This document shows positions 3,705 through 36,750 of a DNA stretch of 64,000 nt, piece after piece. Origin of the DNA: a virus (taxonomy: Duplodnaviria > Heunggongvirae > Uroviricota > Caudoviricetes); the IMG/VR virus record IMGVR_UViG_3300041409_000458; one strand, given 5' to 3'. A program made the translations under genes and the position numbers. The stretch's first letter is position 1, and every line of letters starts with the position of its first letter. The notes under the pieces are model-generated. The model was not told where the DNA came from and searched no databases. It was given only the letters and a program-made list of their open reading frames with translations.

Positions 3705-4251
3705 AAAGTTTAATCAAGTAATCTCTCATTTCAGGATACATATCGGCATTTACACTTTTGAGAAAGTGAGGGTTTTCCTCCTTATATTTCTCAACCATTC
3801 TGCTTTTAGTCAATTTTCCCCATTGAACATTTGCTATTCTATCACAAAGTTTTACAAAGGTAGCACCTTTTGTATTACGAATTCCTTCATAGTACTTTTC
3901 ATTTGCTTTTTCTGCTCTGTTTTTTCCTTTTTCATTAGAGACTGCATAAATAATATCTGCAACTTCCTGACCTAACATTTGTTTGATATCATTGTAGGAG
4001 CATCTGGCATCCTCATAAAGGTCATGTCCCCAACATGCATCTTCAATTGTTGAATGAGTAATATCTACTATTTGAAAAGAGTTGTGGTAGCAAGACTCTT
4101 CTGTTGTTATAAAATTCTTTGGTAAGAGATGTTTGAAATCATTATAGACCTGAACAACCATTCTCAAGTGCATCTCATATGGTAGGTATTTATCATAATA
4201 ATGATTTGTTTTTTGGTGTCGTTCAATACACCAGCTTTGTGCTGTTTGCAT
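3688..4251 (-). CDS. HD-domain phosphohydrolase-like protein
   Basis: 187 aa; H...HD motif (CYHNSFQ ... CWGHDLYED ... KLCDRIANV) resembles HD metal-dependent phosphohydrolases (e.g. 5'-deoxynucleotidase type). Confidence 0.4.
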   Translation of the reverse strand: MQTAQSWCIERHQKTNHYYDKYLPYEMHLRMVVQVYNDFKHLLPKNFITTEESCYHNSFQIVDITHSTIEDACWGHDLYEDARCSYNDIKQMLGQEVADIIYAVSNEKGKNRAEKANEKYYEGIRNTKGATFVKLCDRIANVQWGKLTKSRMVEKYKEENPHFLKSVNADMYPEMRDYLIKLFDNGL

Positions 4252-4407
4252 CTTATTTAGGTTTATAGTGTTTAAGAAAAACAGAAAGTAGAACTAGGAT
4301 TGTTCCAATTACTCCTGTTAATACTTGGTCCTTAGCTATTGCATAGCCAATAAGTACACCTCCAACACAGTCTCCTGTATCTTCAATGAATTCTAACCAA
4401 TTTGATT

Positions 4408-4809
4408 TCATGTTTGCTTTTTTAAATACTGTGAGAATTGAAAGAGAGCTTCAAATATAGCTTCTTTCTTATTTGGAAACCTATGCTGAGTTCCATTCCA
4501 GACAGATGGTGTAGATATTGTTCCGTTACTCTTTATTACAACATCAGTCTTAACGATGTATATAGGATGACCCCGAGCTTCAATCCACTCAAGAGCATAG
4601 AATTGCCAGTTAGCATCAGAGTCATATTTTGCATGACGACCAAGCGTTTCAAGGCATTCATCTTTATCTTTCATTCCACAGCACCAATCTCCTTCTATTA
4701 AAGGATTATATATTGTTCCCTTGTAATATGGTTGTTGAATTTCTAACCAAGGTTCCACCTTAGCTCCTAGCATTTCAGCTATGGCTAAGTTCTTTTCTTG
4801 TGTTGTCAT
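4408..4809 (-). CDS. phage ABA-sandwich-domain-like protein
   Basis: 133 aa; N-terminal NLAIAEMLGAKVEPW resembles the conserved start of phage ABA sandwich domain proteins. Confidence 0.3.
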   Translation of the reverse strand: MTTQEKNLAIAEMLGAKVEPWLEIQQPYYKGTIYNPLIEGDWCCGMKDKDECLETLGRHAKYDSDANWQFYALEWIEARGHPIYIVKTDVVIKSNGTISTPSVWNGTQHRFPNKKEAIFEALFQFSQYLKKQT

Positions 4810-6423: not shown

Positions 6424-6692
6424 AGTAAGTCTTTTAATGCTTGTTTAGGCTCAAAATGATTTAAAGTTTCTGAACTATTACTACGGATTAGATATTCTAT
6501 AGCTTTTGCTTCTATATCTTCTTCATCGAGAGATATTTGTTTATGAGTTAGTATGTTTTCGAGGACTTCTGTAGCTGTATCCAGTTTATCCCAGCTACTG
6601 TTTCTTAATCGTCTTTCGACAGAATCCAGATATCTTCTGTTATTCTCTATCTCCTTCTTAAGGCTCTCTAGAGGTATTAATAAATGTGTCAT
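6420..6692 (-). CDS. hypothetical protein
   Basis: 90 aa ORF. Confidence 0.3.
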   Translation of the reverse strand: MTHLLIPLESLKKEIENNRRYLDSVERRLRNSSWDKLDTATEVLENILTHKQISLDEEDIEAKAIEYLIRSNSSETLNHFEPKQALKDLL

Positions 6693-11052: not shown

Positions 11053-11679
11053 TTATAATAATAACAATCTATCAACTCCAAAAGCAAATCCGACTCCTCC
11101 TTTATATTCTCCTCCTCCACATACCTGTTTTTGAGCACCTAAGTTATTACAGCTTATTTCAAAGCCCTTTCCGTCCTTGTAGTAATCCAAACCTCTCTTT
11201 ACATCACTTCTAAGCTCAAATGAGCCCGGAATGCTCTTATAAAGGCTTACAGCTAAATCCTTCAGATATCCAAGGTAATCTTTTGTAGGGTTAAGTATTT
11301 CAACCCCTAATTGAGTAAATTGACGATATCTTCCAGATTGAGGTCGTTCTCCTCTGAAACATTCCTGAATGTAGAATAATTTGACGTCCTTTTTATGTTT
11401 GAAAGTTGTAGACGCAAGTTTTTGGACTATTGCCGTATATTCTGGAGCCAAACATATATCTCTTCCTCCTCTGTCTTGAAAATTGAACATGAGATTGTTG
11501 TTTTCCTCTCCTACTTTTCCTTTAAAGGTCTCCTGAAGCTGAATTATTGGAATCGACATTTCTGTGAATCCTTCCGTAATGAGTCTTTGAACTGATTGTT
11601 CAATAAAGTCTCGTTTTCTGTTGCCAAAGAGGATTCGGGTACCTTTATAGCAGGTTTCTTTGATTTCAATGTCTTTCAT
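11053..11679 (-). CDS. class II aminoacyl-tRNA synthetase-like core (HisRS/HisZ-like), lacks anticodon-binding domain
   Basis: YKGTRILFGNRKRDFIE ... FQDRGGRDICLAPEYTA (HisRS N-terminal pattern); motif 2 FRGERPQSGRYRQFTQLGVEI; motif 3 GGGEYKGGVGFAFGVDRL; only about 210 aa. Confidence 0.6.
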   Translation of the reverse strand: MKDIEIKETCYKGTRILFGNRKRDFIEQSVQRLITEGFTEMSIPIIQLQETFKGKVGEENNNLMFNFQDRGGRDICLAPEYTAIVQKLASTTFKHKKDVKLFYIQECFRGERPQSGRYRQFTQLGVEILNPTKDYLGYLKDLAVSLYKSIPGSFELRSDVKRGLDYYKDGKGFEISCNNLGAQKQVCGGGEYKGGVGFAFGVDRLLLL

Positions 11680-17829: not shown

Positions 17830-17905
17830 TGGAGCTCCCTCTATGATTCGAACATAGGGTCCCTTCCTTTGCGGGGAAGTGCTTTACCAACTCAGCTAAG
17901 GGAGC
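17830..17905 (-). tRNA. tRNA, anticodon GCA (Cys-like) with atypical C32-C33 anticodon loop; CCA encoded
   Basis: Hand-folded cloverleaf: acceptor GCTCCCT/AGGGAGC, D-loop AGTTGGTA, anticodon stem CTTCC/GGAAG with loop CCGCAAA, T-arm CTATG-TTCGAAT-CATAG, 3' T-CCA. Confidence 0.55.
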
Positions 17906-18130: not shown

Positions 18131-18183
18131 AATTCTTTCTGTTTGTTCATTTTTGAATATCTAGCTCATATTTAATCTTTTAG

Positions 18184-18255
18184 TGCAGATAAAGAGAATC
18201 GAACTCTTGACAAAAGCTTTTAGAGAGCCATGTTCTACCCCTGAACTATATCTGC
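18184..18255 (-). tRNA. suppressor-like tRNA with anticodon CUA (amber-reading)
   Basis: Hand-folded: acceptor GCAGATA/TATCTGC (7 bp), D-arm GTTC-AGGGGTA-GAAC, anticodon loop CTCTAAA (C32 U33 CUA A37 A38), T-arm AAGAG-TTCGATT-CTCTT; anticodon stem has only 3 WC + 1 GU pairs. Confidence 0.55.
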
Positions 18256-19615: not shown

Positions 19616-20220
19616 TTTAAGGAAGAAAGTGAGTTATTTTTATACAATCTGTAGACTTTTCCATAGTCTATCTTTAACTTTTCAGCTATTCTCCTAAGAG
19701 AATAAGATATACCATTTCTTTGTATACATATTGTATTTGAGCGATTTGCTGCTTGTTCATTTAATTCAATCCACTTACAATTCTCCTTGTAATAACCTTT
19801 CTCAATTTCCAACCTCTCAATTGATGAGGTTTGAGTAGGTAATTCTCCCATATCTTCCAAGAAATTCTCAAAAGACATCCACCTTTCACAAACTGTAATT
19901 CCTTTACCTCCATAGTACTTATAGTTCTGCGTAGCTGGGTTATAGCAACGCTTTTTCATATCACACCATATACTATATATCTTGGAATTTCTCATTCCAT
20001 GAGTTTTAGCTGGTGGATTTTCTATACTTATGCATCCACATGATGCTATTTTTCCACTCTTTAAATGGTCTAATCTAACAGTCTTACTATTACCACAATC
20101 ACATAAACACTTATAGTAATTCTGATAAGCATTGTTTTTGTGTGAAAATTCGATAATAGTAAGTCTGTTAAATTTATCTCCTAGTTTAATTGTCTTTTTC
20201 ATGATGTGAAGATACAACAA
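19603..20220 (-). CDS. putative HNH-like homing endonuclease / zinc-binding phage nuclease
   Basis: 205 aa; Cys cluster CLCDCG...SCGC and RCYNPATQNYKYYGGKGITVCERWMSFENFLEDMG, a pattern common in phage HNH-type endonucleases. Confidence 0.4.
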   Translation of the reverse strand: MLYLHIMKKTIKLGDKFNRLTIIEFSHKNNAYQNYYKCLCDCGNSKTVRLDHLKSGKIASCGCISIENPPAKTHGMRNSKIYSIWCDMKKRCYNPATQNYKYYGGKGITVCERWMSFENFLEDMGELPTQTSSIERLEIEKGYYKENCKWIELNEQAANRSNTICIQRNGISYSLRRIAEKLKIDYGKVYRLYKNNSLSSLKWEG

Positions 20221-21951: not shown

Positions 21952-23841
21952 TTAAATTGTGTTCTTTCTCACCAGTTCATATCTGTTTGACCTGTGGAAT
22001 GATTGCAATGGTGTATAAACATCCATTACATCCATATCCTTAAAGTTTGTTAACAGTTGCTCAATCTGAGCTGGATTTGGTGGAACAAACATGAAATTGT
22101 CAATACCTGAGAATCTGTCAGCCTTAGCTGAAGATGCCCCGGCAACATCAATGGCGATGATAAATGGTCTGAAGCCAAAGTATTTCTCACATCTCTTCAT
22201 AAAGTCATTGATTGAGCTCTCTGGAGAAGGCATGTTATTCCAGTTTCCATCGGAAATGATGGTCCAAACAGGGAAATGCTGTAATTGTTCAGTCATTGTT
22301 AAATCTCCCTGCAATTGCTGGTTCAGGTATTCCGGAATAGAACTAATATTCGTACCGTTTCCTGTCTGTACAGCATGACTAAACTCTCTTATTCTCTTGA
22401 GGTTATCAAGGAAATGAAGATTTGGGTCCAGTAATGGCTGACTTACCTTCTGTGCAGTTGTACGCAGAATTGAATTACCTGTTAAAGGAGCTCTGGCTGT
22501 CATTGTATTATACAACCTTGCATGACTTGAATAAAATCCAAGTAATGACCTTCCTTCTTCAGATGGGTTCTTTGTAAGACAGATTGTAGCCATGAAAGCA
22601 GCAAAATCAAAGGCTGTAATACCATTGGTTTTGTAAGTAGTCATTGAACGTGAATCATCCACAAACACCAGATTGTTGAATTCCAGCTTAATCTTATCAA
22701 GGAATGGCTGTAGTTTTAACTTATCAACAGTTCCAAGGATTATTTCTGTGAATAATTTCTCAAATTCAACAGCACCAACAGTAACTTTAGCTTCTTTCTT
22801 CAGCTTTACCACGTTTTCCTTTTCTTCTTCAGTAGCTGTTCCCTGACGAACCTTTTCTTCTACTACACGTACCTCGGTCTGCTTTGCTTCCTTAAACTTC
22901 TCCCAAGCTAAGAACCAGTTACCAATATCACCCCATTTCTCCTTGCACTTGTTATCCTTATCCAGAACCCTGCAACGAACTCTATAACGAGCAGTTGCTG
23001 GCAGTTTGTCAAGAAATAACAGGAAACTATCCTTATCAAATTCTCTCACCTTACCTGAGGCAAACATTACACTTTCCAGTTCACCAATGTATTCCTTTCT
23101 CCAGTTAATGTAACCAGTGAATTCAACATGTGTTGTTTTCTTCACATATGGCAGATTGGCTTTATCACACACCAATTTCAGGAAGTGTTGTTTTGCACCC
23201 ATGTTTGCTTTCGTTTCCAGAAGCATGGTTTTGTGATTCTTCCTCTTACTTAACCTTGGTCTTGTAAGGAATTTTGCCAACAGATGCTTATCAGAAGGAT
23301 TTCTTCTTTTAATAACACCTGCACAAAAGTCAGCAAGGTCATTCAGATATTCATCTGTACCATCAAAACTGGAAGTAACTGATACAACTTTCTTGGTCTT
23401 TTTGGTTGTTTTTACCCTGTTCTTAAGTAATGTATCAAATGAAGTAAATTCATTGAACAAGTTTGCAAACAGGAACTTCTTGAATTGTGGATAGTTCGTC
23501 TTTTTAAGCCATTCGAAGGCTAACAGAAATGGTTCCCTTTGTGATGAACCACCACTATCCGTTTTCACTCCTTTAAAGATATTGTGCTGACGAGCAGTAA
23601 TATCTCCAATAGAGAATAATAAGGAGAAGAACATCTCTCTTCCTTCTTTACTTTTCTGAGCTTCAGCCCAGCTTCTGTCGAGCATACCTTGGTTGATTGT
23701 CCCTTTCGAGGCATTCTGATAGAACTCGAGAGTGTTTCTCATTCCGTAGAATGGATTGTCTGTCTTTTTGTTCACTTGAACTGCTAAATTTGCCATGTTG
23801 ATGGTTTTGTAGGACACTTTTTCCTTTTGATTAACATTCAA
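21952..23841 (-). CDS. large protein with C-terminal von Willebrand factor A (vWA) domain
   Basis: 629 aa; MIDAS-like LVFVDDSRSMTT (DxSxS) and downstream WTIISDGNWN (DG motif). Confidence 0.5.
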   Translation of the reverse strand: MNVNQKEKVSYKTINMANLAVQVNKKTDNPFYGMRNTLEFYQNASKGTINQGMLDRSWAEAQKSKEGREMFFSLLFSIGDITARQHNIFKGVKTDSGGSSQREPFLLAFEWLKKTNYPQFKKFLFANLFNEFTSFDTLLKNRVKTTKKTKKVVSVTSSFDGTDEYLNDLADFCAGVIKRRNPSDKHLLAKFLTRPRLSKRKNHKTMLLETKANMGAKQHFLKLVCDKANLPYVKKTTHVEFTGYINWRKEYIGELESVMFASGKVREFDKDSFLLFLDKLPATARYRVRCRVLDKDNKCKEKWGDIGNWFLAWEKFKEAKQTEVRVVEEKVRQGTATEEEKENVVKLKKEAKVTVGAVEFEKLFTEIILGTVDKLKLQPFLDKIKLEFNNLVFVDDSRSMTTYKTNGITAFDFAAFMATICLTKNPSEEGRSLLGFYSSHARLYNTMTARAPLTGNSILRTTAQKVSQPLLDPNLHFLDNLKRIREFSHAVQTGNGTNISSIPEYLNQQLQGDLTMTEQLQHFPVWTIISDGNWNNMPSPESSINDFMKRCEKYFGFRPFIIAIDVAGASSAKADRFSGIDNFMFVPPNPAQIEQLLTNFKDMDVMDVYTPLQSFHRSNRYELVRKNTI

Positions 23842-23865
23842 ATGCTGGAATACCAGCTTTAATTT

Positions 23866-23884
23866 GATTGTAAGTGTCCAAAGT
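23866..23884 (-). promoter_or_regulatory. instance of recurring motif (minus sense TTAAG..ACTTACAA), here 25 nt upstream of the vWA gene start and just 3' of a tRNA
   Basis: Plus strand ttgattgtaagtgtccaaag; the same core ttgtaagt recurs about 10 times between 23.8 and 26.8 kb. Confidence 0.4.
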
Positions 23885-23893
23885 TAATAATTG

Positions 23894-23967
23894 TGTAGAA
23901 GGTAGGAGTCGAACCTACGACTTCTGATACCGGGTATCAGCACTCTAGCCAACTGAGTTACTTCTAC
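23894..23967 (-). tRNA. tRNA with canonical cloverleaf but atypical anticodon loop ACCCGGU (possible CCG, Arg-like)
   Basis: Acceptor GTAGAAG/CTTCTAC, D-arm ACTC-AGTTGGCTA-GAGT, anticodon stem CTGAT/ATCAG, T-arm GTAGG-TTCGACT-CCTAC, discriminator A; no U33. Confidence 0.55.
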
Positions 23968-23968
23968 A

Positions 23969-24026
23969 TGGTGAGGAACAGGTCTGAATCTTTCAAGCTT
24001 TCGCCAGCTAACTCAGTTGTTCCTCA
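23969..24026 (-). ncRNA. tRNA-like minihelix ending in CCA (9 bp helix TGAGGAACA/TGTTCCTCA + CCA) immediately 5' of the 23894..23967 tRNA
   Basis: Minus sense TGAGGAACA-N37-TGTTCCTCA-CCA-T followed directly by the tRNA 5' end; internal CTGA..TCAG helix and GCGAAAGC GNRA hairpin; no D or T loop. Confidence 0.35.
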
Positions 24027-24267
24027 TTTAAAGATACTTGGTTTTGTTGACATTATCATAAAATGTTGCGTCTACCAATTTCGCCACCCCACCATTTACT
24101 CAACAGTTACTCCTTTTGAGAGACTGAAGAGTTAATCACATACAAAGGGAACGTATCGTACGAGCCGTTCATGTCTACGTACAGTATTCGGGTATGTGAG
24201 CCCATTGTGGTGGGGCTAGGAATCGAACCTAGAAGTACCCTTTCGGGAGATTGTCTAGTAAGTATCT
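24027..24267 (-). tRNA. candidate circularly permuted / two-piece type II (Leu-like) tRNA gene
   Basis: In minus sense the 3' half (variable hairpin CCCGAAAGGG, T-arm CTAGG-TTCGATT-CCTAG, acceptor CCCCACC) at 24208..24245 lies upstream of the 5' half (GGTGGGG-TG-GCGAAATTGGTAGACGC-A-ACATT-TTATGAT-AATGT) at 24050..24093; 114 nt linker; flanked by inverted repeats agatactt (24260..24267 / 24031..24039). Confidence 0.4.
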
Positions 24268-24335
24268 TAATATTTTGCTAAGCACTATTTGGTCATTGTT
24301 GCAAAATGGTGTCCCACTGAAGGAACTTGATTTGT

Positions 24336-24352
24336 TTGTAAGTGCTTAAAAG
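24336..24352 (-). promoter_or_regulatory. recurring ttgtaagtgcttaaaag motif instance
   Basis: Plus tttgtaagtgcttaaaag; same motif family as 23866, 24659, 24794, 25906, 26716. Confidence 0.35.
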
Positions 24353-24355
24353 TTT

Positions 24356-24541
24356 TTACATATGTTGTCCTAATTCCTTATACGCTTCAGCTAATGCATT
24401 AATCGCTTCACGTATTTTTTGTTTGGCTTTAGGAATATTCTTAACTGCTTTGTTTTTGGCTACATAATCTTCAAGGTTGTTAGTTATGATAGAAGTTCTA
24501 TCCATAGCTTCATGAAGGTAACCTTTGTCTACTTTTGCCAT
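24356..24541 (-). CDS. hypothetical small protein embedded in tRNA array
   Basis: 61 aa ORF MAKVDKGYLHEAMDRTSII...; helical, K-rich. Confidence 0.3.
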   Translation of the reverse strand: MAKVDKGYLHEAMDRTSIITNNLEDYVAKNKAVKNIPKAKQKIREAINALAEAYKELGQHM

Positions 24542-24576
24542 TGGTTTTATTTTAAAAATGAAAGACGCTTATCATA

Positions 24577-24647
24577 TTACAATTGTGGGAATTGAACCCA
24601 CGAGTTTTTATCCAGATTAAAATGCAGAACCACTCTGCAAATTGTTA
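24577..24647 (-). tRNA. tRNA-like element with anticodon CUG (Gln-like) but poorly paired acceptor stem
   Basis: D-arm GCAG-AGTGGTT-CTGC, anticodon stem TTTTA/TAAAA with loop ATCTGGA (U33, CUG), T-arm GTGGG-TTCAATT-CCCAC; 5' TAACAAT vs 3' AATTGTA pairs at only 4 of 7 positions. Confidence 0.4.
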
Positions 24648-24670
24648 GATTGATTTGATTGTAAGTGTCT

Positions 24671-24810
24671 TAATAAATTGAGGATACTTATTTTTTGATT
24701 TCGTGAAAAGAAATTGCACTACCAACTATGCTACCCCTCCATTAACCGACGTGAAACTTGCGGAGGGGGCTGGATTCGAACCAACGTATATTTTGATGGT
24801 CTTGTAAGTA
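24671..24810 (-). tRNA. candidate circularly permuted / two-piece tRNA gene (anticodon UUC)
   Basis: Minus sense order: leader AGGATACTT (24799..24807) - T-arm GTTGG-TTCGAAT-CCAGC (24762..24778) - acceptor 3' CCCCTCC-G (24754..24761) - 20 nt linker - acceptor 5' GGAGGGG (24727..24733) - TA - D-arm GCAT-AGTTGGTA-GTGC - A - anticodon arm ATTTC-TTTTCAC-GAAAT (24691..24707) - trailer AAGTATCCT (24674..24682); acceptor halves perfectly complementary (7/7); leader/trailer 9 bp complementary. Confidence 0.45.
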
Positions 24811-25059
24811 TCCTAAAAAGGTGATATAGTTAGGGGACCCTCTTATCAGGAGGACCTGCCAGCTTATGAGGCCAACAGTTAAAATTTTATTATAAGTAGC
24901 AACTCCAGACCATCTGGATTTTCGACTACTACCGGAGACTCCCCTCGTATGTTATCTACTCCGTGGCTTGTGAAGCTTCGGGAGCGTATTTAATATTTTT
25001 ACTATAGCTTCATTCTTTGCATGAATGTGTGCTGGTAGAAAATGTGATTTTGCAAGATA

Positions 25060-25551
25060 CTATTTATGCTGTAACCAGCTACCATAATCCAAATTTCCTC
25101 TCTTCTTGTTACACTTCTTACATGCTGTAAGTAGGTTTGATGGATGACTTGCACCTCCTGATTCCCATGTGATAATATGGTCTACAGTCAAAGGTACATT
25201 ATCTATTCCACAATACCTACAACAATAATTATCCCTACGGAATACTTGCCATGAAATCTTTTGGTCAATTTGTCTCTGACCTTTACGAAGCAGTTTTCCT
25301 TCTTCGCCTTCAATGTTACACTTGTCAAGCTGGTCTTGTAAAGTATACCATTGCTCAGATGTTGGTGTGATTATAATCAACTCACCTTTCACTTTCTCTA
25401 GAGGTAAATTGACAAGGTAAACCTCATCATCCTTACCCTCCATCAAAAGACCTTTTATTTGAATATCATTACCCCATGAGAGTAATGGGATTTCGTTAAA
25501 CCCTAGAACTTTCGTCATAAGAGTAATTTTAAATGTTAAAAAAGAAGTCAC
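25060..25551 (-). CDS. HNH endonuclease
   Basis: 163 aa; C-terminal CRYCGIDNVPLTVDHIITWESGGASHPSNLLTACKKCNKKRGN is a canonical HNH motif. Confidence 0.7.
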   Translation of the reverse strand: MTSFLTFKITLMTKVLGFNEIPLLSWGNDIQIKGLLMEGKDDEVYLVNLPLEKVKGELIIITPTSEQWYTLQDQLDKCNIEGEEGKLLRKGQRQIDQKISWQVFRRDNYCCRYCGIDNVPLTVDHIITWESGGASHPSNLLTACKKCNKKRGNLDYGSWLQHK

Positions 25552-25658
25552 TAAATCAATACGACAAATTGGTGGGCCGAAACCCTAAGTGTTAGTAAGT
25601 GACTTATAATCTTCAATGTAGCGGAGTGTTTAAGTTTCCGTGCCAATTGAGATATTTG

Positions 25659-25767
25659 TGGGGGAGATAGGAGTTGAACCTATTATCTGTACATTGTAAG
25701 TGTATTGCTTTAACCTTTGAATTTCTTATAAGTAACAAACTATTACTTTTTCTTTAGCTTCTCCCCC
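25659..25767 (-). ncRNA. tRNA-like element: 7 bp acceptor (GGGGGAG/CTCCCCC) and T-arm (ATAGG-TTCAACT-CCTAT) enclosing a 75 nt insert without recognisable D/anticodon arms
   Basis: Perfect 7 bp G-rich acceptor complementarity 100 nt apart; canonical T-loop; insert contains the recurring ACTTACAA motif (25693..25715). Confidence 0.3.
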
Positions 25768-25803
25768 TATTTTACCATTTTTCTAAACGGTACCAAAATA
25801 AAA

Positions 25804-25919
25804 GCTACTAATTTTTTTGTCAAATTACAAGTTTGATGCTCAACCGCTGAGCCAAGATTCCAATGAAGGATTCTATTGGATTCGAACCAATGTTATTTTA
25901 ATTTTCTTGTAAGTAGCTT
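25804..25919 (-). tRNA. candidate circularly permuted / two-piece tRNA gene (anticodon UGU, Thr-like)
   Basis: Minus sense order: leader AAGCTACTT (25911..25919) - T-arm ATTGG-TTCGAAT-CCAAT (25875..25891) - acceptor 3' AGAATCC-T (25867..25874) - 5 nt linker - acceptor 5' GGAATCT (25855..25861; 6/7 complementary) - TG - D-arm GCTC-AGCGGTT-GAGC - A - anticodon arm TCAAA-CTTGTAA-TTTGA (25820..25836) - trailer TAGTAGCT (25804..25811; 8 bp complementary to leader). Confidence 0.45.
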
Positions 25920-26044
25920 AAAAGTTTGATGTAGCACCCTCATAAAGAAAGGGGTCATGTTGACTTACTCTTCCCACAATGCTACCACATCGTTTACCAC
26001 CGCACAACCATCCGTAGTAAACTAGGCTCCTCCGCTAAGAGCAA

Positions 26045-26569
26045 TTATGAGGGTGCTTCATCTTTAATTATTTTATAACCATAATGTTCAAGTACTTCCT
26101 TGCAAGTATCTATGAATTCCTTATCGGTTAAATTGTGTTTCATCTTGTTTATCGTAGCATCAGATAACCCTAAATTTCCAAGCGAATTATCTCCACCTCT
26201 TGATACAGGAATAATATGGTCAAAGTGGTAAGACCTAGAGTCATTAATATCTATTTTGCGTCCAGATAGATAGCAGGTATAGTTATCTCCTATCTTCTCT
26301 CTGAGCTCTTCTAATGTAAACAGAGGAAGGGCTTTTCCCTTCTTATTTGGAAGACCTCTTCTTGCAAACTGAGATTTTTTACAATAGAATTGTTCTCTTT
26401 TCCTAACTAAGGTACTCTTTCCTCGACTTGTTTTTGTTCTCTGCCGTGTCTTTTGCTTCTGTCCTTGTCCACAATGGTAAGAAATATTTCCCTTCGAACA
26501 CCCAACAATTGCTTGGATTTCATCGTAGGATTTTCCTTCTGCTCTTAAACTTAATATTTGCTCTTTCAT
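26045..26569 (-). CDS. HNH endonuclease with N-terminal helix-turn-helix
   Basis: 174 aa; HFDHIIPVSRGGDNSLGNLGL...N..K HNH motif; N-terminal LSLRAEGKSYDEIQAIVGCSKGNISYH HTH. Confidence 0.7.
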   Translation of the reverse strand: MKEQILSLRAEGKSYDEIQAIVGCSKGNISYHCGQGQKQKTRQRTKTSRGKSTLVRKREQFYCKKSQFARRGLPNKKGKALPLFTLEELREKIGDNYTCYLSGRKIDINDSRSYHFDHIIPVSRGGDNSLGNLGLSDATINKMKHNLTDKEFIDTCKEVLEHYGYKIIKDEAPS

Positions 26570-26639
26570 AATTAGTAGTTCAATACAAATGTATGGAAAA
26601 TGTATTGAACTACCAAATTTATTTTCAAAGAAACTTTAA

Positions 26640-26709
26640 TCACAATGTGAGAGTTGAACTCACTACCCTTTTGTTTGAAAAAATGCTCTACCAAGTGAGC
26701 TAATTGTAT
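26640..26709 (-). tRNA. tRNA-like element (canonical D- and T-arms, weak acceptor and ambiguous anticodon loop, possibly CAA)
   Basis: D-arm GCTC-ACTTGGTAG-AGC, T-arm GTGAG-TTCAACT-CTCAC; 5' ATACAAT vs 3' ATTGTGA pairs at 5 of 7 positions plus one GU wobble; anticodon region TTTTTTCAAACAAAAGG ambiguous; preceded by motif at 26716..26735. Confidence 0.35.
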
Positions 26710-26715
26710 AAGTTG

Positions 26716-26735
26716 TTTTGTAAGTTTCTTAATAC
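26716..26735 (-). promoter_or_regulatory. recurring ttttgtaagtttcttaatac motif upstream (minus sense) of tRNA-like element and HNH gene
   Basis: Same ttgtaagt..cttaa core as other instances. Confidence 0.35.
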
Positions 26736-26739
26736 TTTG

Positions 26740-27183
26740 TTATACTTCTACAGCTAATGGGCCAGCAGCAATTTTATCTTCCAGTTCCTTGATACGTGCT
26801 TCTGGTGTCATTGTTTCCTTTTTAAGGGTATCTAGTTGAGCTTTTAGTTCCTTCACTGTTGCTTTTGTATTAGCATCTTCTTCAGTCTTTCTTTTGAAAC
26901 CAATCAAAAGATTGATGAGTTCCTGCATTTTCTTCAAGCCATCAGCTTTCCTTTGTTGGTAATCAGTTAAACTCCATTCATCCAAATTCTCAATGGATGC
27001 AATTTCGTTTTTGATGTTTCCATGAATTCGGCTCAGGGTTCCAATGTTCACATTATGAAATAAATCATAAATGTTGTTTGTGGTTCCAGTGCTTCCTTTG
27101 AATGTTGCTCCACTTATCAGGGCTTCTCCTGCAAGTGCCATGAGCTTATCTCTGTGCTCTTTTGTGAAATTAATTGTTGCCAT
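26740..27183 (-). CDS. hypothetical protein (C-terminal coiled coil)
   Basis: 147 aa ORF. Confidence 0.35.
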   Translation of the reverse strand: MATINFTKEHRDKLMALAGEALISGATFKGSTGTTNNIYDLFHNVNIGTLSRIHGNIKNEIASIENLDEWSLTDYQQRKADGLKKMQELINLLIGFKRKTEEDANTKATVKELKAQLDTLKKETMTPEARIKELEDKIAAGPLAVEV

Positions 27184-32909: not shown

Positions 32910-33422
32910 ATGAAAACAATAGAATGTATATGTAATAACTGTAATAAGTCTTTTACAAAACCACTAAAGGAACATACGAGGTCCCAAAAAGTAGGGAGGT
33001 CTTCATTTTGCTCCTTGGCTTGTGCTAGTAAATTCAACCCAAATAGATTTGGAGGGAAAGTAGGTAATAGAATTCCACCTAGAAATCCCACTAATCCATT
33101 CAAGTATTATCTAAGAAATATAATGAGGAGACATCATAAATGGGATGTCACTCTTGAGTACCTAAAGCAAATCTGGGATGAGCAAGAAGGAATATGTCCT
33201 TATACTAAAATTAAACTTGTTCTAAATACACATAGTCATAGAAATACTGACATACGATTTACTGCCTCTTTAGACAGAATTAATTCTTCAATAGGTTATA
33301 TTAAAGGAAATGTTCAATTTGTCTCAATGGCAATAAATTATATGAAATCTTCTATGTCTCATAGTGATACTACAGAATTCTTACAAATTATAACAAAGAA
33401 CTTGAATCCACTACTTTCATAA
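32910..33422 (+). CDS. HNH_3-type homing endonuclease, free-standing on the opposite strand
   Basis: 170 aa; N-terminal Cys cluster CICNNC...CSLAC; C-terminal CPYTKIKLVL ... ASLDRINSSIGYIKGNVQFVSMAIN matches the HNH_3 motif; lone plus-strand gene in minus-strand block. Confidence 0.55.
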   Translation: MKTIECICNNCNKSFTKPLKEHTRSQKVGRSSFCSLACASKFNPNRFGGKVGNRIPPRNPTNPFKYYLRNIMRRHHKWDVTLEYLKQIWDEQEGICPYTKIKLVLNTHSHRNTDIRFTASLDRINSSIGYIKGNVQFVSMAINYMKSSMSHSDTTEFLQIITKNLNPLLS

Positions 33423-33682
33423 TGGCGTGGACTATATCTTCACCCGTTCTGGGTGTTGGATGCTCTGGGCTCACCGTAGTGTCCCTAGTCTCTGAACCTT
33501 CCTCAATCTTCCCTGAGGCTCGGCTGCTGATTGCCTACGTCTTTACGTTTAGGGTTCCAGCAATTCTTCCAATTTTTTCATCTGTATTCCTACAAAGCGA
33601 GTCCGATTTTATTCAACTCGGGTCCAAACAGGTGTCTTTCAAAAAATCAATCCTTACGAACTTTGGGCGATTACCATTTATT

Positions 33683-36663: not shown

Positions 36664-36681
36664 TTTAGTTGATTTATTTTG

Positions 36682-36750
36682 TAGAGGCACCGAGATTCGA
36701 ACTCAGATTTCTCCCTCGCAGGAGCGTCCTAGCCATTAAACTATACCTCT
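36682..36750 (-). ncRNA. tRNA-like element lacking an anticodon loop (anticodon arm replaced by a GCGA tetraloop hairpin)
   Basis: Acceptor AGAGGTA/TGCCTCT (6 WC + 1 GU), D-arm GTTT-AATGGCTA-GGAC, T-arm CTGAG-TTCGAAT-CTCGG; middle arm CTCCT-GCGA-GGGAG is a 5 bp stem (4 WC + 1 GU) with GNRA tetraloop. Confidence 0.4.

What the first reader, a model, noticed from the sequence alone, without database searches (positions are those of the whole stretch)
23850..26740. Unusual tRNA array: noncanonical anticodon loops, CCA-terminated minihelix, tRNA-like elements with inserts, interleaved HNH endonucleases
Besides the permuted units, the array contains the following.
- A cloverleaf tRNA (23894..23967) whose anticodon loop ACCCGGU lacks U33.
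- A 9 bp minihelix ending in CCA directly abutting that tRNA (23969..24026).
- A Gln(CUG)-like tRNA with a mismatched acceptor (24577..24647).
- A 109 nt element with a perfect 7 bp acceptor and T-arm but no D/anticodon arms (25659..25767).
- An anticodon-arm-like hairpin with loop CUGAUAA at about 24825..24850.
- A tRNA-like element at 26640..26709.

Two HNH endonuclease genes (25060..25551, 26045..26569) and a small ORF sit between RNA elements. Several loops have C at position 33, which is also seen in the Cys-like tRNA at 17830..17905. This may reflect decoding peculiarities or tRNA mimicry rather than error.
Basis: seen in the sequence. Interest (0 to 1): 0.6.

Follow-up and report, generated by a model that had tools for sequence, protein, structure and literature searches.

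The report
Phage Ro60-like gene with tRNA-mimic RNAs
The odd "tRNA array" is a cluster of tRNAs and rearranged tRNA look-alikes, each clamped by the same short RNA helix, sitting just upstream of a Ro60-like RNA-binding protein gene in a crAss-like gut phage; it is most likely a viral version of the Ro60/Y-RNA system, which uses tRNA mimics.

Summary
Two items were misread.

**The array.** It lies on the minus strand. It is built from eight units, each bracketed by a covarying 7-10 bp helix whose 5' strand carries UUAAG-NN-ACUUAC-AA. The cargo of a unit is one of three kinds:
- an ordinary tRNA;
- a circularly permuted tRNA-like RNA (T arm, closed acceptor stem, D arm, anticodon arm);
- a short hairpin.

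**Corrections.** The 109-nt element is tRNA-Val(UAC) with a 33-41 nt D-loop insert that carries a closed copy of the helix. The CUGAUAA hairpin belongs to a conserved 112-nt element.

**Linkage.** In 46 independent crAss-like contigs, helix-paired units cluster around this gene: 133 on its strand and 3 on the other. There are none in controls. Units next to the gene match Rfam YrlA full-length (up to 49 bits, E 6e-8, below the curated threshold). In ΦcrAss001 related units lie beside the annotated TROVE gene.

**Verdict.** This is a divergent phage Ro60/Y-RNA locus with tRNA mimics, a new variant of a known kind. C33 in tRNA-Arg and the CCA minihelix are real but have no orthologs and remain unexplained.

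The parts
26628..26732 (-). Unit 1. Helix 5' strand and motif UUAAGAAACUUAC (26720-26732); tRNA 26639-26709 (loop UUCAAAC, anticodon CAA, A1xA72 mismatch); helix 3' strand AAGUUUCUU (26628-26636).
   Evidence: Rfam tRNA 38.3 bits. ARAGORN structure. Exact complement 94 nt downstream. Orthologous units in L010, L012, L015 and L016 carry a UCA (opal-suppressor-type) anticodon; L009 carries CAA. Coordinates.
26045..26569 (-). HNH endonuclease gene 2 (174 aa). It is a lineage-specific insertion.
   Evidence: PHROG HNH families, E 4.3e-26. No counterpart in L009-L012, where the flanking RNA elements are adjacent.
25934..26056 (-). Structured RNA 'S', about 125 nt, with outer stem GCACCCUCAUAA/UUAUGAGGGUGC. 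Function unknown.
   Evidence: MFE -41.7 kcal/mol, z -2.45. The homologous stretch in L009 keeps the outer stem with a different sequence.
25802..25921 (-). Unit 2, a circularly permuted tRNA-like RNA. Order: motif, T arm plus acceptor 3' strand (25867-25891), 6-nt linker, acceptor 5' strand, D arm, anticodon arm CUUGUAA (25820-25861), helix 3' strand (25802-25811).
   Evidence: Rejoining the halves in silico gives ARAGORN tRNA-Thr(UGU). The L009 ortholog has a compensatory change in the anticodon stem. Coordinates.
25659..25767 (-). tRNA-Val(UAC) interrupted in the D loop by a 33-41 nt insert. The insert holds a closed copy of the helix (AAGUAA-UAGUUUG-UUACUU-AUAAG, 25725-25748).
   Evidence: 15 deletion variants restore an ARAGORN tRNA-Val. 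Orthologs with the same kind of D-loop insert occur in L010 (5160-5290) and L011 (6400-6500). The same design is seen in L007 7420-7950.
25545..25607 (-). Unit 3, short-cargo unit: motif AUAAGUCACUUAC, a small GC hairpin, then 3' strand AGUGACUU. It lies just upstream of HNH1.
   Evidence: Orthologs in L009, L010 and L011 have UUCG-type hairpins.
25060..25518 (-). HNH endonuclease gene 1 (152 aa from the ATG). It is conserved at this position in relatives.
   Evidence: PHROG HNH families, E 4.6e-17. Pfam HNH genes sit at the same place in L009, L010 and L011.
24833..24944 (-). Element X, a conserved structured RNA. It has an outer stem GGGGA/UCCCC, a closed helix module (GUAGUAG...CUACUUAUAA), a variable hairpin with loop CUCAUAA, and a 5-bp arm with loop CUGAUAA (24838-24854). 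It has no T arm.
   Evidence: Six copies aligned across four phages. RNAalifold gives 23 pairs, 9 of them with double changes. The loop is CUGAUAA in 5 of 6 copies and CUCAUAA in 1.
24681..24816 (-). Unit 4, a permuted tRNA-like RNA. Order: motif UUAGGAUACUUAC, T arm plus acceptor 3' strand (24761-24785), 20-nt linker, 5' half with anticodon loop UUUUCAC (24698-24740), helix 3' strand AAGUAUCCU.
   Evidence: Rfam YrlA hit at 24678-24814, 27 bits, E 0.0078. The rejoined halves give ARAGORN tRNA-Glu(UUC). Exact helix complement.
24562..24673 (-). Unit 5: motif UUAAGACACUUAC, tRNA-Gln(CUG) 24577-24646 with an A1xA72 mismatch, 3' strand AAGCGUCUU (one A.C mismatch).
   Evidence: Rfam tRNA 41.7 bits. 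ARAGORN structure. Orthologs with UUG (L009) and UGG (L010) anticodons sit in the same bracket.
24356..24541 (-). Small ORF (61 aa) with no family match.
   Evidence: It is not conserved in relatives.
24278..24349 (-). Unit 6, short-cargo unit: UUAAGCACUUAC ... AGUGCUUAG.
24031..24270 (-). Unit 7, a permuted class-II-like tRNA-like RNA. Order: motif; variable-arm hairpin, T arm and acceptor 3' strand (24208-24249); conserved 114-nt linker; 5' half with a Leu-type D arm and anticodon loop UUAUGAU (24050-24093); 3' strand AAGUAUCUU.
   Evidence: The rejoined halves give an ARAGORN type-II tRNA with anticodon AUG. The linker is 94% identical over 73 nt in L009. Orthologous last units in L010, L011 and L012 keep the stem ACAUU/AAUGU but carry anticodons AUG, UUU and CUG.
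23969..24026 (-). Rod-like hairpin ('minihelix') ending in ACCA, one base before tRNA-Arg. It contains GGCGAAAG, which matches the bacterial Y-RNA motif GNCGAAN0-1G.
   Evidence: z -4.9. Motif scan. No relatives in any fetched locus.
23894..23967 (-). tRNA-Arg(CCG) with C33. Its anticodon arm can also close into 7 bp with a 3-nt loop.
   Evidence: Rfam 56.1 bits. ARAGORN structure. No orthologs in IMG/VR or JGI metagenomes.
23812..23882 (-). Unit 8, short-cargo unit in the leader of the Ro60-like gene: UUUGGACACUUAC ... AAGUGUCC. It ends 15 nt before the ATG.
   Evidence: MFE -24.8 kcal/mol, z -4.4. A unit at the same place, about 35 nt upstream of the gene, is seen in most of 46 related loci.
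21952..23796 (-). Gene for a 614-aa Ro60-like protein: helical N-terminal part plus a vWA domain with the MIDAS motif DDSRS.

Best explanation
The region is the non-coding RNA arm of a phage Ro60/Y-RNA-type system.

**Proposed mechanism.**
1. The 614-aa protein encoded directly downstream is a divergent Ro60-like protein: a helical part plus a vWA domain.
2. Each RNA unit in the array ends in a short terminal helix formed by its 5' and 3' flanks. The 5' strand and the bases after it are conserved (AAG-NN-ACUU|AC AA). This helix is proposed to be the protein's docking site, as the terminal stem is in Y RNAs.
3. The body of a unit is the effector module. It can be a YrlA-like tRNA mimic whose acceptor stem is closed by a linker (here still carrying a full anticodon arm), a complete tRNA, or a small hairpin.
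4. In tRNA-Val and in element X the same helix is present as a closed hairpin inserted into the RNA.
5. Units with a 7-bp acceptor stem are expected to be cut by RNase P and given CCA, as shown for M. smegmatis YrlA. That would produce two-piece tRNA-like particles held together by the helix.
6. The complex would act early in infection on tRNA-related targets. Possible roles are tethering host exonuclease or tRNA-binding enzymes, or acting as decoys for anticodon-loop-directed host nucleases.

**Shown:** the helix and its covariation; the tRNA-like anatomy; the Ro60 fold; the tight genomic linkage.

**Inferred:** protein binding to the helix; RNase P and CCA processing; the biological role.
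For: **The helix is real.**
- 30 of 68 motif copies have an exact 8-nt reverse complement 12-330 nt downstream. Only 15 of 1020 arms with the two variable bases changed have one.
- Across 284 units, pairing is 95-99% Watson-Crick at G-N-N-A-C-U, with four pair types at both N positions.

**The helix is linked to the gene.**
- 46 IMG/VR loci were found through the protein alone. They carry 133 paired units on the gene's strand and 3 on the other. 40 of 46 loci have at least one, typically about 35 nt upstream of the gene and just after it.
- Controls have none: the rest of this window (61 kb) and five other phage tRNA-array loci (46 kb).
- The converse also holds. All three phages found through the RNA pattern alone that hold several motif copies encode the protein. 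It lies next to the units in L003 and L007, and elsewhere on the same contig for L005.

**The protein has a Ro60 fold.**
- The top Foldseek PDB hit is Rsr.

**The RNAs resemble YrlA.**
- Full-length Rfam RF02553 matches lie within 70-100 nt of the gene end in relatives L041 (49 bits, E 6e-8), L035 (39 bits) and L048 (35 bits). Matches lie further downstream in L044 (46 bits) and L060 (45 bits).
- Window unit 4 scores 27 bits.
- Many relatives encode N-CCA directly after the acceptor 3' strand.

**A cultured relative shows the same thing.** In ΦcrAss001 the 900-nt gene-free stretch next to the annotated TROVE gene gp96 holds five units. Each has a covarying helix followed by UUAC(U)UCAA. Two of these units sit inside tRNA-like genes.

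**Precedents.**
- YrlA RNAs are encoded next to Ro60 genes, and M. smegmatis YrlA is cleaved by RNase P and receives CCA in vivo (PMC4201824).
- The phage phiLo Ro60 binds two Y-like RNAs encoded upstream of its gene (PMC12135203).
- The crAss001 TROVE gene is an early gene (PMC8375218).
Against: - No sequence-level membership. Pfam TROVE is not detected in any of 30 homologs; the only hit is weak VWA_2. A profile comparison with crAss001 gp96 aligns only the MIDAS stretch.
- The best full-length structural matches among viral models are DUF2828/DUF7788/vWA proteins (TM 0.5-0.67), not annotated Ro60 proteins.
- The canonical Y-RNA motif GNCGAAN0-1G is absent from the units. All YrlA scores are below the Rfam threshold of 69 bits.
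- The permuted units of this window keep complete, canonical anticodon arms. In relatives, 19 of 23 have U33 and 21 of 23 have a purine at 37, with many different anticodons. A pure mimic would not obviously need this, and it fits real decoding tRNAs better.
- Binding, processing and expression have not been observed.
Confidence: 0.6

Rival explanations
1. The units are true disrupted tRNA genes: circularly permuted, or interrupted in the D loop. The helix is a processing and joining signal. The flanks pair, an unknown nuclease cuts, and a ligase (for example host RtcB) joins the halves. Alternatively the two pieces stay clamped by the helix. RNase P and CCA addition then open the acceptor end, giving working decoding tRNAs that gene finders miss.
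For: - The rejoined halves are recognised as tRNA-Glu, tRNA-Thr and a type-II tRNA. Removing the D-loop insert restores tRNA-Val.
- Anticodon loops are canonical and varied, including UCA in L059.
- Open (permuted) and closed (insert) forms of one helix coexist. This mirrors intron-containing and permuted tRNA genes of Cyanidioschyzon and archaea (my own knowledge of Soma et al. 2007).
- Several relatives encode CCA after the acceptor 3' strand.
- Published reports note undetectable suppressor tRNAs in recoded crAss-like phages (PMC7886860, PMC12386605).
Against: - The helix is continuous, with no bulge-helix-bulge motif (sequence).
- The distances from the helix to the tRNA body vary: 7-13 nt on one side and 8-28 nt on the other. 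A helix-measuring cut would therefore not give a defined variable loop.
- No RNA ligase, RtcB or splicing endonuclease was found among about 30 window proteins.
- Many units carry no tRNA at all: 66 of 143 have cargo under 75 nt. Many permuted units lack an anticodon arm or close the acceptor stem with a tetraloop (L011 GAAA, L005 UUAU).
- This reading does not explain the linkage to the Ro60-like gene.
Confidence: 0.2
2. The helix is only a processing or insulating stem. It would resemble the leader-trailer stems around rRNAs, letting each RNA fold on its own and be cut out of a long early transcript by a host double-strand-specific RNase. On this view the neighbouring protein is unrelated.
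For: - The helix brackets very different cargos, including complete tRNAs.
- It is often followed by a U-rich run.
- All units share one strand with the flanking genes.
Against: - 7-10 bp is short for RNase III (my own knowledge).
- The conserved single-stranded AC-AA after the 5' strand, and the closed copies inside D loops and in element X, are not explained.
- The units are confined to the neighbourhood of one gene across 46 contigs and are absent from other tRNA arrays.
Confidence: 0.1
3. The motif is a promoter, and its complement is part of a terminator. The permuted order is then a by-product of gene decay and shuffling by HNH endonucleases.
For: - The motif lies 10-14 nt upstream of mature tRNA 5' ends.
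- TAGGATACTTACA is identical to the -10/start region of the T7 A1 promoter, as printed in 10.1101/2020.03.07.982082.
- HNH genes are interleaved with the RNA units.
Against: - The two variable bases, one of which falls at the position of the essential A-11 of a -10 element, change freely and covary with a partner up to 230 nt away.
- Closed copies sit inside tRNA D loops.
- The motif is absent from the other 61 kb of the window.
- Early crAss-like transcripts showed no common upstream motif in phi14:2 (10.1101/2020.03.07.982082).
- The permuted design is conserved and under purifying selection across dozens of phages.
Confidence: 0.07

Closest known systems
YrlA-type bacterial Y RNAs with Ro60/Rsr (Rfam RF02553; Chen et al. 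2014, PMC4201824)
   Same: - The 5' and 3' ends pair into a terminal stem.
- Between them lie a T arm, an acceptor-like stem closed by a loop, and a D arm.
- The RNAs are encoded next to a Ro60-type gene, and there are several per locus.
- Some have a 7-bp acceptor stem. In M. smegmatis such a stem is cut by RNase P and receives CCA.
- Full-length sub-threshold matches of the Rfam model occur in relatives.
   Different: - The conserved stem motif is AAG-NN-ACUUAC, not GNCGAAN0-1G.
- The units in this window keep a complete anticodon hairpin, and the RNA ends emerge in the variable region rather than at the anticodon stem.
- The same helix also brackets whole tRNAs and sits as a hairpin inside D loops.
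- Scores are 27-49 bits against a threshold of 69.
- The protein has no detectable TROVE sequence signature.
Thermus phage phiLo Ro60 with Yrl1/Yrl2 (PMC12135203; PDB 9L5Y)
   Same: - A phage-encoded Ro60-fold protein with Y-like RNAs encoded directly upstream of its gene.
   Different: - phiLo has two simple stem-bulge-stem RNAs with a CGAA motif and no tRNA-like module.
- Here there are eight bracketed units, most of them tRNA or tRNA-like, with a different motif.
Circularly permuted tRNA genes of Cyanidioschyzon merolae and some archaea (my own knowledge: Soma et al. 2007; Chan et al. 2011)
   Same: - The 3' half is encoded upstream of the 5' half and joined to it by a linker between the acceptor strands.
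- The flanks are complementary.
- Interrupted (insert-bearing) genes using the same signal coexist with the permuted ones.
   Different: - Those genes use a bulge-helix-bulge motif and the tRNA splicing endonuclease. Here the helix is continuous and no such enzyme is known in the Bacteroidota hosts that published work assigns to crAss-like phages (the host of this phage was not identified).
- The break lies in the variable region.
- Many units here carry no tRNA.
Phage tRNAs with anticodon-loop changes that escape host anticodon nucleases (PMC10264068)
   Same: Otherwise good phage tRNAs (Arg, 56 bits; Cys, 63 bits) carry non-canonical loop positions, here C33.
   Different: That work concerns other loop positions and other phages. 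No nuclease, target or ortholog is known here, so the link is only a lead.

Membership tests
tRNA (Rfam RF00005) | Contiguous cloverleaf scoring at or above the gathering score of 29 bits | tested here: met
   23894-23967 scores 56.1 bits, 24577-24646 scores 41.7, and 26639-26709 scores 38.3. Not met for the 109-nt element or for units 2, 4 and 7 as encoded. These are recognised only after in-silico deletion or re-ordering.
tRNA (Rfam RF00005) | 7-nt anticodon loop with U33 and a purine at 37 | tested here: not met
   tRNA-Arg 23894-23967 has the loop ACCCGGU (C33), and tRNA-Cys 17830-17905 has CCGCAAA (C33). The feature is met for the Gln tRNA, the CAA tRNA and the permuted units.
YrlA Y RNA (Rfam RF02553) | Score at or above the gathering score of 69 bits | tested here: not met
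   Window unit 4 scores 27 bits, E 0.0078. Relatives score 35-49 bits, E 5e-4 to 6e-8, with full-length model matches.
YrlA Y RNA (Rfam RF02553) | Terminal stem from the 5' and 3' ends enclosing a T arm, a closed acceptor-like stem and a D arm | tested here: met
   Units 2, 4 and 7. Helix covariation.
YrlA Y RNA (Rfam RF02553) | Conserved GNCGAAN0-1G near the 5' end (proposed Ro60 contact; PMC4201824) | tested here: not met
   None of the bracketed units has it. The only non-coding copy in the array is GGCGAAAG in the apical part of the minihelix.
YrlA Y RNA (Rfam RF02553) | Encoded next to a Ro60 ortholog | tested here: inconclusive
   The neighbouring gene has a Ro60 fold but no TROVE sequence signature. 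Linkage between units and gene is strong.
YrlA Y RNA (Rfam RF02553) | Bound by the Ro60 protein | not testable with these tools
   Needs EMSA or pull-down.
Ro60/TROVE protein | Pfam TROVE (PF05731) sequence match | tested here: not met
   No hit in the window protein or in 29 homologs. The only hit is weak VWA_2, in 5 of 30 sequences. A PDB profile search found nothing.
Ro60/TROVE protein | Helical-repeat domain followed by a vWA domain with MIDAS; overall fold like Ro60 | tested here: met
Circularly permuted tRNA genes (C. merolae type) | 3' half upstream of 5' half, joined by a linker between the acceptor strands | tested here: met
   Units 2, 4 and 7.
Circularly permuted tRNA genes (C. merolae type) | Bulge-helix-bulge motif at the junction of the flanks | tested here: not met
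   The helix is a continuous 7-10 bp with no 3-nt bulges.
Circularly permuted tRNA genes (C. merolae type) | Maturation through a circular intermediate to a contiguous tRNA | not testable with these tools
   Needs RNA sequencing of infected cells.
HNH homing endonuclease | HNH nuclease domain | tested here: met
   Both ORFs match. Pfam HNH is recorded on the L009-L011 counterparts of HNH1.

The most novel reading that the evidence does not exclude
The permuted and interrupted units are a hidden second tRNA repertoire. [quoted passage not shown] The Ro60-like protein would act as their assembly or protection factor. Rapid anticodon switching on one scaffold (UUU, GUU, GAU, GUC, UCA) would then be real decoding evolution. 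It could supply the 'missing' suppressor tRNAs of recoded crAss-like phages.
Probability: 0.18. Interest if true: 0.9.

Novelty: new variant of a known kind. Interest (0 to 1): 0.66.

Why it matters
- **A function for a known gene.** crAss-like phages are the most abundant viruses of the human gut. In ΦcrAss001 the early 'TROVE protein' has no assigned partner or role. This analysis assigns it, and a divergent 614-aa counterpart, a family of adjacent RNAs with a defined, testable docking helix.
- **Wider Y-RNA diversity.** It extends tRNA-mimicking Y RNAs to forms that keep full anticodon arms, to whole tRNAs, and to tRNAs with the helix inserted in the D loop.
- **Annotation.** tRNA finders see only a minority of the tRNA-like genes in these arrays.
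- **Testability.** ΦcrAss001 is cultured and carries related units, so binding, processing and knock-out tests can be done directly.
- **Possible role.** If the RNAs act against tRNA-directed host defences, this would be a new kind of viral counter-measure.

Tried and rejected
- **Promoter reading of the motif.** Rejected because the two variable bases covary with a distant partner, closed copies lie inside D loops, and the motif is absent from the rest of the window. The sigma-70 and terminator scan was uninformative.
- **Archaeal-type bulge-helix-bulge splicing.** The helix has no bulges.
- **Mobile-element terminal repeats or integron attC-like sites.** Rejected because the repeats differ between units while both sides change together.
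- **Known small ribozymes or other Rfam families.** No hits apart from tRNA and YrlA.
- **Search for a phage RNA ligase, RtcB or splicing nuclease.** Pfam scans of about 30 window proteins found none.
- **Close relatives.** There was no near DNA match in INPHARED phages. tblastn with the 614-aa protein found nothing there either. The single-protein scan of IMG/VR failed, and an exact-protein look-up failed.
- **Orthologs of tRNA-Arg(C33) and the minihelix.** None were found in IMG/VR, in JGI metagenomes (two scans) or in 60 fetched loci. Conservation of C33 could therefore not be tested.
- **phi14:2.** Its abundant early non-coding region has no such motif and no homolog of the protein.
- **HNH1 versus crAss001 gp99.** They are unrelated.
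- **AFDB fold search.** The library was unavailable.
- **The motif copy at 20164.** It lies inside an ORF and was judged to be chance.

Full report
**What is there.** Everything of interest lies on the minus strand. ARAGORN and Rfam find three ordinary tRNAs inside the flagged interval:
- 23894-23967, Arg(CCG), 56.1 bits;
- 24577-24646, Gln(CUG), 41.7 bits;
- 26639-26709, anticodon CAA, 38.3 bits.

The Arg tRNA really has the loop ACCCGGU with C33. tRNA-Cys at 17830-17905 also has C33, loop CCGCAAA. The Gln tRNA and the CAA tRNA both have an A1xA72 mismatch, which reading of L009 shows is kept there. The 58-nt hairpin 23969-24026 folds far better than shuffles (z -4.9) and ends in ACCA one base before tRNA-Arg. 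Both HNH ORFs are confirmed. The raw observations therefore largely hold.

**Two corrections.**
- The 109-nt element (25659-25767) is not armless. It has a D stem and an anticodon arm with loop CUUACAA. Deleting 33-41 nt from its D loop makes ARAGORN call tRNA-Val(UAC) in 15 variants. The insert contains a hairpin, AAGUAA-UAGUUUG-UUACUU, followed by AUAAG.
- The CUGAUAA hairpin lies at 24838-24854. It is one arm of a 112-nt element, X (24833-24944), present in six copies in the window, L009, L010 and L011. Nine of its pairs show double changes, some of them in the hairpin stem. The loop is CUGAUAA in five copies and CUCAUAA in one.

Eight places in the array carry UUAAG-NN-ACUUAC-(A/U)A. A ninth ACUUAC copy, at 25701, is simply the anticodon loop of tRNA-Val. 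Each of the eight has a reverse complement, AAGU-N'N'-CUU, 45-230 nt downstream, and the variable bases change together. The helix therefore brackets units:
- three ordinary or near-ordinary cargos: the CAA tRNA, the Gln tRNA, and short hairpin cargos upstream of HNH1, upstream of the next gene, and after the small ORF;
- three circularly permuted tRNA-like RNAs, units 2, 4 and 7.

In the permuted units the order is: motif, spacer, T arm, acceptor 3' strand, linker, acceptor 5' strand, D arm, anticodon arm, spacer, helix 3' strand. Joining the halves in silico gives ARAGORN tRNA-Thr(UGU), tRNA-Glu(UUC) and a type-II tRNA with anticodon AUG.

**Statistics for the helix.**
- 30 of 68 motif copies in eight loci have an exact 8-nt complement downstream, against 15 of 1020 for arms with altered NN.
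- In 284 units, the six core pairs are 95-99% Watson-Crick, with four pair types at each N position.
- G.U outnumbers A.C among single mismatches, 17 to 7. This is mild support for pairing in RNA of this strand.

**The neighbour.** The array ends 15 nt before a 614-aa gene (21952-23796) with no Pfam or PHROG match.
- An AlphaFold model built on 30 homologs (pLDDT 84) has a helical N-terminal part and a vWA domain with an invariant DxSxS.
- Foldseek's top PDB hit is Deinococcus Rsr (E 7.9e-6).
- Sequence methods do not see TROVE. The best full-length matches among viral models are unnamed vWA/DUF2828/DUF7788 proteins.

I therefore call the protein Ro60-like by fold, not a proven ortholog.

**Linkage.**
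- Relatives fetched through the protein (L009-L012, 68-87% identity) have the same array upstream of the gene. It includes orthologous permuted units with compensatory stem changes and changing anticodons.
- A profile scan of IMG/VR gave 46 loci with the gene at 42-64% identity, from contigs of about 90-105 kb and 165-183 kb. These hold 133 helix-paired units on the gene's strand and 3 on the other. 40 of 46 loci have at least one, typically about 35 nt upstream of the start and just past the stop.
- Controls have none: the other 61 kb of this window and five unrelated phage tRNA-array loci.
- Conversely, the three multi-motif phages found earlier through the RNA pattern alone all encode the protein.
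- Of 143 distinct exact units, 66 have short cargo, 48 start with a T loop (permuted type), 23 are ordinary tRNAs and 6 are other.

**Relation to Y RNAs.**
- Rfam's YrlA model matches window unit 4 weakly: 27 bits, E 0.008.
- It matches units beside the gene in relatives strongly and over its full length: 49, 46, 45, 39 and 35 bits, E 6e-8 to 5e-4. All are below the curated 69 bits.
- Those relatives have the exact YrlA layout, with no anticodon hairpin. Many encode N-CCA after the acceptor 3' strand.
- The literature supplies the framework. YrlA RNAs lie next to Ro60 genes and mimic tRNA, and the M. smegmatis YrlA, which has a 7-bp acceptor stem, is cut by RNase P and receives CCA in vivo (PMC4201824). 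Phage phiLo Ro60 binds two Y-like RNAs encoded upstream of its gene and assembles with host PNPase (PMC12135203).
- In ΦcrAss001 a TROVE-domain protein is an early gene (PMC8375218). The 900-nt gene-free stretch next to it contains five units with variable, complementary helices followed by UUAC(U)UCAA. Two of them lie inside tRNA-like genes, one of which is an unannotated 144-nt tRNA-model hit of 46.6 bits.

**Interpretation.** I conclude, at about 0.6 confidence, that this is a divergent Ro60/Y-RNA locus in which the bracket helix is the protein's docking site and the tRNA-like bodies are effector modules.

What is new relative to known Y RNAs:
- a different conserved motif; GNCGAA is absent;
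- full anticodon arms with canonical loops and fast anticodon turnover on one scaffold;
- whole tRNAs inside the bracket;
- closed copies of the helix inserted in D loops and in element X.

These same features keep alive the rival that the units mature into decoding tRNAs, spliced or two-piece. I put that at about 0.2. The arguments against it:
- the helix has no bulges;
- its distance to the tRNA body is variable;
- many units have no tRNA or have a tetraloop-closed acceptor stem;
- no ligase was found in the window.

A pure promoter/terminator reading and a protein-independent processing-stem reading are less likely. The reasons are given under the rival explanations.

**What remains unexplained.**
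- C33 in tRNA-Arg and tRNA-Cys. It is compatible with the idea that phage tRNAs alter anticodon loops to escape host nucleases (PMC10264068), but no ortholog exists to test conservation.
- The ACCA-ending minihelix. It has no relatives, but it carries one copy of the canonical Y-RNA motif GGCGAAAG, expected about once per 6 kb.
- Element X and the structured RNA at 25934-26056.
- The role of the conserved HNH1. HNH2 is a lineage-specific insertion whose last codons run into that structured RNA.

**Verdict.** It is best filed as a new variant of the Ro60/Y-RNA (YrlA) kind in Crassvirales, not as a set of aberrant tRNAs. It can be tested directly in ΦcrAss001.

Noticed in passing
window 25934-26056 (-), and L009 4615-4750: A structured RNA of about 125 nt whose long outer stem is kept with a different sequence in L009. 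The HNH2 ORF is inserted just 5' of it, and its last codons and stop lie in the stem. HNH2 is absent from L009-L012.
   Followed up: partly
L029 8470, L033 8418, L034 8376, L037 8485, L059 8524: One permuted scaffold (same D arm and same anticodon stem ATACA/TGTAT) carries the anticodons UUU, GUU, GAU, GUC and UCA in different phages. The UCA version is an opal-suppressor anticodon in a gene that tRNA finders miss.
   Followed up: partly
window 26639-26709; L009 4523-4598; L010 4793-4869; L012 7279-7352: The first tRNA of the array has anticodon UCA in L010, L012, L015 and L016, but CAA in the window and L009. The change comes from a 1-nt shift of the loop register. No in-frame TGA was seen in the window's terminase, portal or capsid genes.
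   Followed up: partly
window 24094-24207 (-): The 114-nt linker between the acceptor strands of unit 7 is itself conserved. It is 94% identical over 73 nt in L009, and its first 23 nt are identical in L010. It has an internal stem UCACAUAC/GUAUGUGA.
   Followed up: no
window 25060-25518 plus 24833-24944; L009, L010, L011 against L012: HNH1 and element X always occur together and are both missing from L012. They may be one inserted module.
   Followed up: no
window 36681-36750 (-): A tRNA (Rfam 44.3 bits) with a 6-nt anticodon loop; ARAGORN cannot assign an anticodon.
   Followed up: no
window 18183-18255 (-): An amber-suppressor-type tRNA (anticodon CUA), although the large structural genes in the window are intact under the standard code.
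   Followed up: no
window 33408-33624 (-): A group I intron (Rfam 75.2 bits).
   Followed up: no
window 11056-11679 (-): A 208-aa ORF matching the catalytic core of histidyl-tRNA synthetase (Pfam tRNA-synt_His, E 9e-16). Unit 7 and an L010 unit carry the unusual anticodon AUG, which would read the His codon CAU.
   Followed up: no
L003 4963-7971 (same contig as L052): The Ro60-like gene is split by an insert of about 1.2 kb between residues 516 and 517, possibly an intron or intein.
   Followed up: no
L062 (ΦcrAss001 MH675552) 6454-6597 (-): An unannotated 144-nt match to the tRNA model (46.6 bits). It has a large insert carrying UUACUUCAA and lies in the gene-free stretch beside the TROVE gene gp96.
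   Followed up: partly
L061 (phi14:2 NC_021806) 4031-4500: ARAGORN calls a tmRNA-like gene inside the gene-free region that was reported as an abundant, stable early non-coding transcript.
   Followed up: no
L014 1-105: In the 84%-identity relative, the position of tRNA-Arg is taken by a tRNA-like gene whose anticodon loop UAUUGCU also lacks U33.
   Followed up: no
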